Assembly: GCA_964016885.1 (NCBI GenBank)
Contig: OZ024764.1
Coordinates: 15,872,001-15,936,000, forward strand
Direction of reading: 5' to 3'
Origin: Eledone cirrhosa
Lineage: Eukaryota
DNA: 64,000 nt
Below, piece after piece: positions 1,831-56,700 of this stretch (within the stretch, counting starts at the first letter, position 1; every line of letters begins with the position of its first letter). The position numbers and the translations under genes are program-made. The notes under the pieces are model-generated. The model was not told the origin of the DNA. It did no database searches and saw nothing but the letters and a program-made list of their open reading frames with translations.

Positions 1831-2201
1831 TACGATATTAAATAAATGGAAACTATATTTATAAAACCATATTTATTTCATTATATATATTTCAGGGATA
1901 TCATATTAACAATATGTTATGCCTTCTTCAGACAAAATACAATATAGACAGTTTTATAGATAAATAGATTTGACATACCGTTCAACATCGACTTGTATTT
2001 GAAAAAGTTGATCTGCCAAATCAACTTTTTCAAATACAAGTCGATGTTGTACGGTATGTCAAATCTATTTATCTATAAAACTGTCTATATTGTATTTTGT
2101 CTGAGGAAGGCATAACATATTGTTAATATGATATCCCTGAAATATATATAATGAAATAAATATGGTTTTATAAATATAGTTTCCATTTATTTAATATCGT
2201 A
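1831..2201. repeat. Near-perfect fold-back palindrome, arms about 182 bp, 7-nt loop at 2013-2019
   Basis: Arms are reverse complements with about 2 mismatches. Confidence 0.95.
2093..2158 (+). ncRNA. Minimal type I hammerhead ribozyme motif (mirror copy on - strand at about 1874-1939)
   Basis: tattttgt-CTGAGGA-stem II-GAAA-tatata-TA-atgaaata; stem I pairs over 8 positions including G-U pairs. Confidence 0.68.
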
Positions 2202-3744
2202 TGTATATATATATATATTTATATATTTATATTTATATATACATATACATATATATATATGTGTGTGTGTGTTTGTGAAATATATTGTGACCATTGCCCC
2301 AAATTTGAAGCTACCCCCTCCCCCCTACTTTACATTTAAATTATAGGTTTCTCCGCCATCCCCAGCCCCAGAACTTCTAATTGCTTTGTGAGTAGGTGGG
2401 GGTGGGGGAGACAGCCAATGTCCTCCACTGTCATCATCACCAGTAAAATCATCACTATCATCATCACCATCATCACTACCATCACCCCCCCATAATCATC
2501 ACCACCGCCAGCACCATCAACACCACCTCACCGCCGCCGCCACCACCACCACCACCAACACTACACCACTACCAACACTACACCACCACCACCACCAACA
2601 CTACACGACGACCACCACCACCACCAAAACCACCACCACCAACACTACACCACCACCACCACCACCACCACCACCAACACTACACCACCACCAAACCACC
2701 ACCAACACTACACCACCACCAACACTACACCACTACACCACCACCACCAACACTACACCACCACCACCACCACCACCACCATTACACCATCACCACCACC
2801 GCCACTACCACCACCATCACCACCACAACCACCAAAACCACCACAACCACCACCACCACCACCACCAACACTACACCACCACAACCACCACCACAACCAC
2901 CACCACCACCACCACCACAACCACCACCACCACCACTGCCAACACCCTTGAAACTCCATCTTATCTGTTACTCAGCCAATGTTCATCCTGCCCCCTCCCA
3001 CCTGTCGCGTAGCACCCCCCACCCGTCGCGTAGCACCCCCCCCCACACGACCCCCTCCCCCACCCCTGGCCCTGGGGTGGGGACAGAAGACACAACACCC
3101 AGATTGTTAGACTTAAAGTGATATACTGTCTTCTGAAGATATTGTCACTCTCCAGTAACTGAAAACCATAAAACACTGACAGCACAGGCTGTTATATATA
3201 TATATATATATATATATATATATATATATATATATATACACTCACACACACACACTCTCAGACGTGTGTGTGTGTGTGTGTGTATATATATATATATATA
3301 TATATATACATATATATATATATATATATACACACACTCTCAGACGTGTGTGTGTGTGTGTGTATATATATATATATATATATATATATATATATATATA
3401 TATATATATATATATATATATACACACACTCTCAGACGTGTGTGTGTGTGTGTGTGTATATATATATATATATAAATATATATATATATATATCCATACA
3501 CACACATATATATATATATCTGTATATATATATAGACAGATATATATACATCTGCGTGTGTTTAAAGTGTAATGAGGAAGTTATATATCATGCAGAACTT
3601 TATTGCAGTGTAATTAAACTAATATACATCACATATATACACACACACAGACTCACATACATACATCTATACATATATACGCACATACATACACACACAC
3701 ACACACACACATATATATATATATATATATATATATATATATAT

Positions 3745-53700: not shown

Positions 53701-56700
53701 TTGCTTTTCTTCTTCACTAGGATGTCGAGAATCACGTTTTGGTTGCTGTGAGGATCAGGTAACTGCAGCACGAGGTAAATAGACAGTTTTAGTGTCTAGG
53801 ATTTATCAACACACTGACCTATATGTGTGCATGTGTCTATGTGCATAGACAAACATTTATATGTATGAGTATAATTGTATCTATTATATATAATAAGGCA
53901 TGCAGCTTTTCCACGATTAGGTCTGTTGGCGGTCCGCGTTCCAAAATACCTTATCCCGTGCAACGCCGGGTACCACTGCTAGTATATATATATAAATATA
54001 AAATGTAGGTAATATTAAATATTATCCAATTACAAGTAAGAGAATAGCTCAATGTAAAATAACAAGTATATTACAGAGCCAAAATATAATGTAAATGACA
54101 ATGCTTACTTCCCATATTATGTATCGACGACCTAATGTTCTTATGACAAAGTTCCGATACTATATTTGTGTTTGAACCTTTATTATATACTCTGATGATT
54201 CCTGCCTTGTGCTAGGATGAAACAATTGTAGGTGATTAAATGTTTTAAACACTCTTTGATTGTCATTTACATTGTATCATCATTTCATTTTACGTCCGCT
54301 TTTCCCTGCTTGCAAGGGTGGGACGGGAACTGATTCTGGCTTGATTTCTACAGCTGGATGCCCTTCCTAACACCAACCTCATTTACAGTGAGTGCTGGGT
54401 GCTTTTTTTGCTGTGGCACTTCCACGACCACTTTGCAGTGGAATGATAGGGACCCCAGTCCCTATCATTTCATTTCTACAGCTGAGTAAACTGGAGCTAT
54501 GTGAAATAAAGTGTCTTGCTCAAGGAAACAACACATCACCTGGTCTGAGAATTGAACTCACAACCTTTCGATTGCAAGGCCAATGCTCTAACCACTAAGC
54601 CATGTGCCTTGTATGAGTATATAAATATAAACACGTAAACACAGACACACTTACAAATGAAATGGTATGTATGATTTCCTGGTCAATTTCTCTTAGCTTT
54701 TGAAGAATTAAACTCCACTGAAAAGTATGGCAGATTATTCAATTATTGGTCGTTCCAATAATAATTCTTCCCCATATATATAAATATATGATGATGAGAT
54801 GATGATGATGATATATATATATATTCATTAGTTAAGCAAAACAAGACCACAAACTTCCCAAGGAAGACATTATTAGAAGATGGCGGTGGATTGGCAGTAT
54901 CGGTAGAGGGTCGGGCGCCATGCTTTCCAGCATAGTTACGTCCCTTTACGATCTGAGTTCAAATCCCGCCGAGGTTGACTTTGCCTTTCATCCTTACGGG
55001 GTCGAGAAAATAAAGTACCAGTAATGCACTGGGTAATTGCTGGCCTTGTGCCTAAAGTAGAAACAATTATTAAAAGATTGTCTACATATTTTAGTTTAAT
55101 GTAAGGAATGTAGAGAATAATAATGATAATATTAATAATAATTGTTTCTACTTTTGGCACAAGGCCAGCAATTATCCCAGTGTATTACTGGTACTTTATT
55201 TTATCGACCCCGTAAGGATGAAAGGCAAAGTTAACCTCGGCGGGATTTGAACTCAGAATGGCAAGGGCCGTAACTCTATGCGTCAAAGCATGGCATCCGA
55301 CCCTCTACCGACTCTGCCAATCCACCAGCCAATATTAATAATAATAATGTCTGTTTACAATTGTTTCGCTAATTCACCAATCTCTCCTCTCCTCTCTCCT
55401 CTCCTCGCTCCTCTCCCATCTCCTCTCCTCTCTCCTCTCCTATCTCCTCTCCTCTCTCCTCTCCTATCTCCTCTCCTATCTCCTCTCCTATCTCTCTCCT
55501 ATCTCCTCTCCTCTCTCTTCTCCTATCTCCTCTCCTATCTCCTCTCCTCTCTCCTCTCTCCTCTCCTCTCTCCTATCTCCTCTCCTCTCTCCTATCTCCT
55601 CTCCTCTCTCCTCTCTCCTCTCCTATCTCCTCTCCTCTCTCCTATCTCCTTTCCTCTCCTCTCTCCTCTCCTCTCTCCTCTCCTATCTCCTCTCCTATCT
55701 CCTCTCCTCTCCTATCTCCTCTCCTCTCCTATCTCCTCTCCTCTCTCCTCTCCTATCTCCTCTCCTATCTCCTCTCTCCCTCTCCCATTCTCTCCTCTCC
55801 CATCTCCTCTCCTATCTCCTCTCCCATCTCCTCTCCTATCTCCTCTCCCATCTCCTCTCTCCTCTCTCCTCTCCTTCTCCTCTCCTCTCTCCTCTCCTCT
55901 CTCCTCCTCTCCTCTCTCCTCTCCTCTCTCCTCTCCTCTCTCCTCTCCCATCTCCTCTCCTATCTCCTCTCCTCTCTCCTCTCCTCTCTCCTCTCCTATC
56001 TCCTCTCCTCTCCCCTCTCCCATCTCCTCTCCTCTCCTCTCTCCTCTCCTATCTCCTCTCCTCTCCTCTCTCCTCTCCTATCTCCTCTCCTCTCCCATCT
56101 CCTCTCTCCTCTCCTATCTCCNNNNNNNNNNNNNNNNNNNNNNNNNNNNNNNNNNNNNNNNNNNNNNNNNNNNNNNNNNNNNNNNNNNNNNNNNNNNNNN
56201 NNNNNNNNNNNNNNNNNNNNNNNNNNNNNNNNNNNNNNNNNNNNNNNNNNNNNNNNNNNNNNNNNNNNNNNNNNNNNNNNNNNNNNNNNNNNNNNNNNNN
56301 NNNNNNNNNNNNNNNNNNNNNCACCACACCTCACCACACTCATCACTCTCCTCTCCACACTCCTCACACCTCTCCACACTCACTCCTCCACACCTCACCA
56401 CTCCACTCTCCACACCTCTCTCCTCACCACTCTCCACTCCTATCTCCTCACCTACTCACCTCTCTCTCACCTCACCTCCACACCACTCTCCTCACCACAC
56501 ACCACACCTCTCAAACACCTCCCCACTCTCTCTCCACACCATCACACCACACCAACACCACACCACTCACCTCCACCTCCACACTCCACACCGCTCGACC
56601 ACTCTCTCACCTCTCCTCTCCTCCACTCCTCTCTCTCACCTCTCCTCTCCACTCCACTCTCCTCACCTCTCCACTCCTCACACACAATCACCTCTCTCCT

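What the first reader, a model, noticed from the sequence alone, without database searches (positions are those of the whole stretch)
2093..54236. Set of minimal hammerhead ribozyme motifs with covarying palindromic stem III
Seen: four sites with stem I-CTGANGA-stem II-GAAA-N6-TA-stem I' (2093, 27522, 37023, 54186). N6 differs each time yet stays self-complementary: TATATA, TGCGCA, TATGTA (with G-U), CAATTG. A partial site at 28224 has CATATG. Established: Penelope-like element termini carry minimal type I hammerheads with palindromic stem III that can cleave as dimers. A Penelope GIY-YIG fragment is present at 8395-8920. Inference: several distinct Penelope or retrozyme-like families hit this locus, and the different palindromes could restrict dimerisation to the same family.
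Basis: partly seen in the sequence, partly recalled or inferred. Interest (0 to 1): 0.72.

Follow-up and report, generated by a model that had tools for sequence, protein, structure and literature searches.

The report
Penelope-type hammerheads in retroelement remnants
Several small hammerhead-shaped RNA motifs lie in repeat remnants in and upstream of an animal matrix-protein gene; they are likely the end pieces of Penelope-like jumping genes and are predicted to cut only in pairs, a kind already described, and cutting was not tested here.

Summary
A structural scan finds 9 type I hammerhead folds against 0.04 by chance; 5 were missed. The partial site at 28224 lacks the core and stem I.

Two of the four lie in head-to-head hairpin insertions with a longer tail on one arm, ending in (TA)n. 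A further motif lies in a high-copy unit with a partial tandem repeat. These are published Penelope-like element (PLE) hallmarks. The GIY-YIG fragment is real but 6 kb from the nearest motif and unlinked.

The motifs are not 'minimal'. They match published PLE variants with a palindromic helix III, whose palindrome already differs between families within one genome. Computed pairing supports family selectivity only in part: TGCGCA and CAATTG are selective, but TATATA and TATGTA cross-pair.

No Rfam hammerhead model matched, no ORF is attached, and cleavage is untested. This scan noted similar PLE hammerheads and hairpins on other genomes. Verdict: new members of a known kind.

The parts
2093..2158 (+). 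Type I hammerhead fold, element A right arm; core at 2101, N6 TATATA, predicted cut after 2150
   Evidence: fold
1874..1939 (-). Inverted twin of the A hammerhead; core at 1931, predicted cut after 1882; differs from 2101 only at core position N7
1745..2201 (.). Element A: head-to-head hairpin insertion; arms 1831-2012 and 2020-2201 (2 differences in 182 bp), 7-nt loop, about 85-nt extra tail on the left arm, TA-rich microsatellite at both ends
29980..30124 (+). Third, 5'-truncated fragment of family A (80.8% over 151 columns), ending in (TA)n; no hammerhead core
27522..27592 (+). Type I hammerhead fold, element C right arm; core at 27530, N6 TGCGCA, predicted cut after 27584
   Evidence: fold
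27339..27409 (-). Inverted twin of the C hammerhead; core at 27401, predicted cut after 27347; identical sequence
27213..27631 (.). Element C: head-to-head hairpin insertion; arms of about 160 bp (one T indel outside the junction), about 80-nt extra stretch on the left arm, (TA)n at both ends
37019..37081 (+). Type I hammerhead fold, element D; core at 37031, N6 TATGTA, 12-bp stem I, predicted cut after 37069; intronic, sense to the host gene; shares flanks with family A
54188..54234 (+). Weak type I hammerhead fold, element E; core at 54192, N6 CAATTG, 4-bp stem I, U-U at base of stem II, predicted cut after 54230; intronic, sense to the host gene
24159..24201 (-). Additional hammerhead fold, element B; core at 24195, N4 CTAG, U-U at base of stem II, predicted cut after 24165
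   Evidence: variation among copies
23897..24397 (-). Element B: about 415-bp non-coding unit preceded by an 85-bp copy of its own 3' end (24312-24397 like 23897-23980); very high copy repeat; 3' end abuts (TA)n
37125..37416 (-). Second copy of family B, 92% identical, starting 6-7 nt 3' of the predicted cut site
24590..24665 (+). Additional hammerhead fold, element B2; core at 24600, N7 CCTCTGG, 10-bp stem I, predicted cut after 24655; hammerhead fold is the minimum-energy fold of the isolated motif
   Evidence: stem II pair-restoring variants
24558..24581 (-). 24-bp perfect snap-back copy of the 5' part of B2 (8-nt loop); not shared by other copies
1468..1510 (+). Hammerhead-like fold with an extra base after A9 and non-palindromic N4; related to decayed copies with cores at -36543 and -58562
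8396..8957 (-). Broken PLE-type linker and GIY-YIG fragment (one stop, one frameshift), cut off inside the nuclease domain; not joined to any hammerhead
28224..28236 (+).

Best explanation
The sites are type I hammerhead folds in short non-coding repeat insertions that are likely the 5'-truncated terminal-repeat (pLTR) ends of several Penelope-like retroelement families, and each is predicted to cut only when its palindrome pairs with that of a second copy. Shown: the folds, the head-to-head hairpins, the one-sided tails, the (TA)n ends, and for element B the partial tandem and high copy number. Inferred from published work: in the parent element's tandem transcript, two palindromic A-N-U segments would pair to form helix III and the RNA would be cut after UA, probably with help from the element's protein. 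Target-primed reverse transcription into (TA)n, stopping early and folding back, would leave these remnants. Inferred for this locus: the single remnants are likely inert passengers. They have no same-family partner in sense nearby, and in A and C a through-transcript would bury the motif in a 160-180-bp duplex.
For: 9 folds against 0.04 by chance; 0 of 52 control matches fold. Head-to-head arms with a junction palindrome and a one-sided extension match PLE insertions in Arkhipova 2013 (PMC3846280, passages) and Craig 2021 (PMC8557442, passages). 7 of 9 hits (5 of 7 elements) have a (TA)5+ run within 150 nt 3' of the cut, against 16% of random positions. Family B has read depth of about 1,500-23,600 against 2-6 in the flank, peaking over the hammerhead; a second subfamily and a contig of another organism share the hammerhead segment; 57 contig ends run into (TA)n at its 3' end. 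Variants keep the fold: N7 changes in both laid motifs and G-C-restoring changes in B2 stem II. Closing stem III in a monomer costs 0.4 to 2.9 kcal/mol at the four N6 sites, while homoduplexes give -2.2 to -10.5. Published PLE-linked motifs have the same layout. PLE coding remnants exist in this window.
Against: No hammerhead is attached to a PLE ORF here, so the link rests on architecture. No Rfam hammerhead family appeared at E up to 10 in 5 of 5 local scans, nor among the 150 rows shown of 450 in the whole-window scan. The tails (about 80-85 nt) are longer than the 30-40 bp reported. In run X1 the stem I change at 24162 (52%) is far commoner than its partner change at 24198 (13%), so many B copies probably carry a mismatch there; 69 of 109 variant rows were not shown. 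D and E have no inverted arm, and E folds poorly. B2 is predicted to fold as a monomer, so the dimer rule may not cover it.
Confidence: 0.8

Rival explanations
1. Some or all are non-LTR retrozymes: non-coding 170-400-nt units that are cut by the hammerhead, circularised and reinserted from circular RNA. Element B is the best candidate.
For: B is a non-coding unit of about 415 bp present as 1.2 copies, very high copy, and a second copy begins 6-7 nt after the predicted cut. Cervera and De la Pena 2020 (PMC7229834, one part and passages) describe such units with two-base-pair helix III plus tetraloop.
Against: No full tandem with two same-sense hammerheads in the window. Inverted arms and (TA)n ends are PLE traits. 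No pile-up of ends at the cut site in the tables shown (only 20 of 658 loose-end rows shown). A 2026 preprint (10.64898/2026.07.22.740005, parts 1-2 of 5) argues retrozymes are PLE derivatives, so the two readings overlap.
Confidence: 0.12
2. The motifs act on the host gene: sense-strand hammerheads in introns cut the pre-mRNA of the ADAMTS/Kunitz (papilin-like) gene and tune its splicing or level.
For: 37031 lies between two ADAMTS spacer exons and 54192 between Kunitz exons, both sense to the gene.
Against: Counting the 9 hits and the two decayed copies, 6 are on + and 5 on -, so there is no strand bias. Monomer stem III is unfavourable. A and C would be buried in long duplexes (-278 and -264 kcal/mol). 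All sit in repeat insertions.
Confidence: 0.03
3. The motifs are chance products of AT-rich, microsatellite-laden DNA, and the inverted twins are assembly artefacts.
For: TATATA and TATGTA resemble the local (TA)n; the GAAA-palindrome-TH half motif occurs 5 times away from any hammerhead. The A and C hairpins were not checked against reads.
Against: No shuffle reached the observed count; TGCGCA, CAATTG and CTAG are not microsatellite; arms differ at a few positions and have unequal ends; B and B2 are multi-copy with fold-keeping variants.
Confidence: 0.03

Closest known systems
PLE hammerheads with a small palindromic helix III (Drosophila willistoni, Aedes aegypti, rotifer, shrimp; Cervera and De la Pena 2014, PMC4209133; parts 1-2 of 4 of the text and parts 1-2 of 3 of the supplement read)
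   Same: Type I layout, palindrome between GAAA and UH, predicted dimer action, many families per genome. The PLE-linked D. willistoni row has a 6-nt palindrome (U AGCU A) and cuts after UA. Three Aedes rows carry CGCG or GGCC at the centre of the palindrome in one genome. Opposite-strand pairs 100-700 bp apart are reported.
   Different: A, C and D lack the extra base after A9, have 8-12-bp stem I and long bulged stem II; A and C lack the G10.1-C11.1 pair. No ORF is attached here.
Hydra-clade PLE hammerheads (Craig et al. 2021, PMC8557442; passages, section 11 and supplement part 2 of 59 with File S2 read)
   Same: (TA)n targets, 8-10-nt self-complementary helix III that differs between families, frequent U-U at the base of stem II (as in 54192 and -24195), cuts after UA in several families, and an inverted 5'-truncated copy in Penelope-13_HM. 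B2, with an odd-length palindrome, has this style.
   Different: Most Hydra-clade segments are odd-length with a central unpaired base; four sites here are even 8-nt palindromes. The coding fragment in this window has a CX2-5CxxC-type linker, which the paper ties to Neptune/Nematis, not Hydra.
Head-to-head inverted pLTR insertions of endonuclease-bearing PLEs (Arkhipova et al. 2013, PMC3846280, passages; Craig 2021)
   Same: Inverted 5'-truncated copy at the 5' end, palindrome at the junction, extension at one end only, microsatellite targets.
   Different: Here only the terminal 100-270 bp survive; the extensions are about 80-85 nt rather than 30-40 bp.
Non-LTR retrozymes (Cervera and De la Pena 2020, PMC7229834)
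   Same: Non-coding, low-GC units of a few hundred bases with a type I hammerhead; B fits the size.
   Different: No tandem multimer in the window; circular RNA not examined.
min-HHR of metazoan PLEs (same 2014 paper; Lunse et al. 2017 known only through a review, PMC6765202, passages, and recall)
   Same: Core, type I topology, dimer requirement. The 1472 / 36543 / 58562 family has the extra base after A9 and G10.1-C11.1.

Membership tests
Type I hammerhead ribozyme | CUGANGA and GAAA cores with UH cleavage site | tested here: met
   9 hits, including 4 of 4 main sites; not met at 28224
Type I hammerhead ribozyme | Stems I and II can form | tested here: met
   Stem I 4-12 bp, stem II 3-9 bp from the junction; weak at 54192; pair-restoring variants in B2
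Type I hammerhead ribozyme | Match to an Rfam hammerhead model | tested here: not met
   None at E up to 10 in 5 of 5 local scans; none in the 150 of 450 rows shown for the window
Type I hammerhead ribozyme | Self-cleavage | not testable with these tools
   Needs a bench assay
min-HHR (Cervera 2014) | No helix III / loop 3 | tested here: not met
   All four sites have 6 nt between A15.1 and U16.1
min-HHR (Cervera 2014) | Unpaired base after A9 and G10.1-C11.1 pair | tested here: not met
   2101, 27530 and 37031 pair directly after A9; only 37031 has G-C; 54192 has U-U; met only by +1472 and its relatives
PLE hammerhead with palindromic helix III | Self-complementary segment between GAA and the cleavage site | tested here: met
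   7 of 9 hits palindromic, 1 near-palindromic, 1 not
Penelope-like element pLTR | Motif lies 3' of an RT/GIY-YIG ORF or in a repeat shared with one | tested here: inconclusive
   28 homologs and a profile find coding remnants only at 8386-8915 and 7829-7868; the remnants are too short to hold an ORF; no genome held
Penelope-like element pLTR | Inverted 5' copy with junction palindrome, or partial tandem | tested here: met
   A, C, B2 inverted; B partial tandem; not seen for D, E
Penelope-like element pLTR | Insertion into (TA)n and optional tail at one end | tested here: met
   5 of 7 elements end near (TA)5+; one-sided extensions in A and C, longer than reported
Non-LTR retrozyme | Tandem units each with a hammerhead | tested here: inconclusive
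   Only 1.2 units of B in the window; rest of the genome not available
Non-LTR retrozyme | Unit-length linear and circular RNA | not testable with these tools
   No RNA data were laid

The most novel reading that the evidence does not exclude
The helix III palindrome is a family-specific RNA pairing code, like the retroviral dimerisation signal (analogy recalled, not from a call). It would bring two same-family Penelope RNAs into one protein dimer, and copying both into the two nicked strands of (TA)n would give the head-to-head hairpin insertions with unequal ends. Hints: the TGCGCA and CAATTG palindromes do not cross-pair with the others; of the 2 differences between the 182-bp arms of A, one is exactly the free core position N7, as if two functional templates were used; a PLE protein was reported to cut and extend both strands and is predicted to be a dimer (PMC11167929, passages). 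Against: TATATA and TATGTA cross-pair; the arms are 99% identical, as single-template fold-back predicts; the same paper found the hammerhead dispensable for insertion in vitro.
Probability: 0.07. Interest if true: 0.7.

Novelty: new member of a known kind. Interest (0 to 1): 0.24.

Why it matters
As found, it adds about six hammerhead families to a class already known to number thousands per animal genome, and shows that Rfam models miss them. Its practical value is as a ready test panel. Natural motifs with 6-, 8- and 9-nt palindromes, one cross-compatible pair and several predicted selective pairs allow a direct test of whether PLE hammerheads discriminate between families. Why PLEs keep hammerheads is still open in the papers read. 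If the pairing-code reading held, it would explain both the ribozyme's palindrome and the inverted insertions.

Tried and rejected
- No whole genome is held, so copy number and ORF linkage of families A, C, D and E could not be tested.
- My first descriptor script had an off-by-one error in stem II and found 1 hit; it was discarded and corrected.
- Rfam: the whole-window scan was swamped by microsatellite matches to microRNA models; five local scans gave only weak snoRNA, microRNA and sRNA matches.
- Protein search with 8691-8957 found nothing; the downstream piece found 1 homolog and 27 more.
- Run search for 23890-24720: no RNA holder listed.
- Two metagenome pattern scans for the A/D and A/C/D contexts found 0 matches. 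The viral scan gave only non-folding matches, used as a control.
- The idea that B copies start preferentially at the cut site rests on one copy; the read tables shown did not support it.
- Six opposite-strand joints among the 15 joints shown (20 not shown) suggest other inverted B copies, but direction is not given and three have only 1-2 read starts, so they were not used as evidence.
- 28224 as a hammerhead was rejected, also after looking by eye for the U3-A8 variant core and on the opposite strand.
- Literature: 'Penelope + hammerhead + heterodimer' gave 0 papers; a kissing/dimerization search listed nothing on PLE family selectivity (listing only); 'octopus + hammerhead ribozyme' listed only Craig 2021 as relevant (listing only). 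Lunse et al. 2017 is not held and may already address palindrome variation or mixed dimers. Supplements of the 2026 preprint were not read.
- Earlier-findings look-ups by place and by sequence returned nothing.
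Full report
Observation. The four sites are present as described. A descriptor asking for CTGANGA, a stem II of at least 3 bp, GAAA, 2-12 nt, UH and a stem I of at least 4 bp gives 9 hits on both strands: +1472, -1931, +2101, -24195, +24600, -27401, +27530, +37031 and +54192. In 500 block-wise and 500 whole-window dinucleotide shuffles the mean was 0.038 and 0.034 hits, and none had a palindromic N6. As a second control, 0 of 52 distinct matches to the bare pattern in viral contigs formed the stems. 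An earlier version of the script had an indexing error and was discarded. The site at 28224 has neither core nor stem I, and its half motif is common background here. No Rfam hammerhead model matched in five local scans.

Anatomy. Sites 2101 and 27530 each have an inverted twin. Element A is a hairpin with 182-bp arms that differ at two positions, a 7-nt loop and about 85 extra bases on the left arm. That extra stretch also occurs in a third fragment at 29980-30124, so it belongs to the element. Element C has arms of about 160 bp and about 80 extra bases on the left. In both, the hammerheads point outward and the ends lie in TA-rich microsatellite. The motif at 24600 has a 24-bp snap-back at its 5' side. 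The motif at -24195 lies in a unit of about 415 bp preceded by an 85-bp copy of its own 3' end; a second copy at 37125-37416 starts 6-7 nt after the predicted cut. Sites 37031 and 54192 have no inverted arm. Seven of 9 hits (5 of 7 elements) have a (TA)5+ run within 150 nt 3' of the cut, against 16% of random positions. Sites 2101, 27530 and 37031 share one context pattern (5 matches counting twins, 0 in 100 shuffles), so they may be distant homologs whose palindromes differ by compensatory changes; 54192 does not fit it.

Copies elsewhere. In a reduced-representation DNA run, B has depth of about 1,500-23,600 against 2-6 in the flank, peaking over the hammerhead. Loose ends at 24137 (11,088 reads) and 24228 (7,502 reads) outline a second subfamily that shares the hammerhead segment, and one contig of another organism does too. 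Of 40 variant rows shown (109 in all), the only core changes are at N7 of both motifs, none falls in a palindrome, and three restore G-C pairs in B2 stem II. Against this, one stem I change in B is much commoner than its partner (52% against 13% in run X1). At the 3' end of B, 57 contigs run into (TA)n.

Coding context. The fragment at 8396-8957 (minus strand) is a broken linker plus GIY-YIG start. It aligns to an unnamed 290-aa protein at 43-48% identity, and 2 of 20 homologs scanned pass the Pfam GIY-YIG cut-off with a single stretch; the fragment itself scores only E 0.071. Its cysteine linker is of the kind that Craig 2021 ties to Neptune and Nematis; clade was not tested by a tree. It ends inside the nuclease domain, about 6.2 kb from the nearest motif. 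The 28 homologs and their profile found no coding remnant beside any hammerhead. The host is a plus-strand gene with ADAMTS cysteine-rich, spacer, TSP1 and six Kunitz exons; 'papilin-like' is my recalled label. Sites 37031 and 54192 are intronic and sense; the others lie upstream of the first exon I could identify.

Mechanism. Closing stem III within one molecule costs 0.4 to 2.9 kcal/mol at the four N6 sites. In-register homoduplexes of the A-N6-U segments give -3.2 (TATATA), -10.5 (TGCGCA), -2.2 (TATGTA) and -6.4 (CAATTG) kcal/mol. Mixed duplexes are unfavourable (-0.1 to +7.7) except TATATA with TATGTA (-3.2). So dimer action is predicted, and family selectivity is partial. B2 alone is predicted to fold as a monomer. 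I infer that these are remnants left by early-terminating, fold-back reverse transcription of PLE RNAs into (TA)n, and that single remnants are inert: A and C would fold into very stable hairpins (-278 and -264 kcal/mol), and orientations are balanced relative to the host gene. Cleavage, expression and the retrotransposition steps were not tested.

Comparison. Cervera and De la Pena 2014 (parts 1-2 of 4, supplement parts 1-2 of 3) report PLE hammerheads with small palindromic helix III, dimer-only low activity, many families per genome and opposite-strand pairs 100-700 bp apart. Their alignment includes a PLE-linked motif with a 6-nt palindrome cutting after UA, and Aedes families with different palindromes. 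Craig 2021 (passages, section 11, supplement part 2 of 59) lists Hydra-clade families with family-specific 8-10-nt self-complementary helix III, U-U at the base of stem II and (TA)n targets. Arkhipova 2013 (passages) describes head-to-head palindromic junctions and proposes self-priming. Frangieh 2024 (passages) found a PLE hammerhead protein-assisted and dispensable for insertion in vitro. I found no paper on family-selective pairing in two searches, but Lunse 2017 could not be read. Earlier notes of this scan describe similar motifs and hairpins on other genomes; I did not check them.

Verdict. Real and well above chance, and richer than reported, but new members of a known kind. They work like dimer-type PLE hammerheads by prediction; PLE membership rests on insertion architecture, not on a linked ORF; they are not min-HHRs. 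Interest 0.24. The pairing-code and two-template reading remains possible at about 7% and is cheap to test.

Noticed in passing
window 36352-36716 and 58361-58731 (minus), 1405-1640 (plus): A further repeat family (two copies 85% identical, one distant relative) with CTGANGA, an extra base, a 6-bp stem II showing two compensatory changes between subfamilies, and GAAA; stem I is decayed in two of three copies.
   Followed up: partly
window 26913-27138 and 28188-28413: 226-bp inverted pair (6 differences) enclosing element C and a SINE-like copy; it includes sequence beyond a (TA)n run and the rejected 28224 site. Origin unexplained.
   Followed up: partly
window 27677-27738, 29925-29976, 57689-57831: Other short or medium hairpins without a hammerhead core; 29925-29976 sits directly 5' of the third family-A fragment and may be another snap-back.
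   Followed up: no
window 54084-54102 and 54259-54277: 18 of 19 nt inverted match flanking the 54192 motif, read by eye.
   Followed up: no
window 46707-53332: Near-identical Kunitz exons repeated with their flanking intron sequence (46707, 49239, 50331, 53045), suggesting recent tandem exon duplication; further Kunitz exons at 51513 and 61085.
   Followed up: no
window 7828-7867 and 8394-8433: 40-bp duplication of the end of the GIY-YIG fragment about 570 bp downstream on the minus strand.
   Followed up: partly
window 1038-1410, 18932-19342, 27835-28188, 54275-54631: Dispersed repeat of about 350 bp with a tRNA-like head (judged by eye); one copy is inserted just 3' of the 54192 motif.
   Followed up: no
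window 18303-18662 and 62763-63422 (minus): Two related reading frames that look like Tc1/mariner transposase fragments (recalled motif; no Pfam hit at E up to 0.05).
   Followed up: no
window 24414-24509: A separate moderate-copy repeat between elements B and B2 (read depth about 130-220 against 2-6 in the flank).
   Followed up: no
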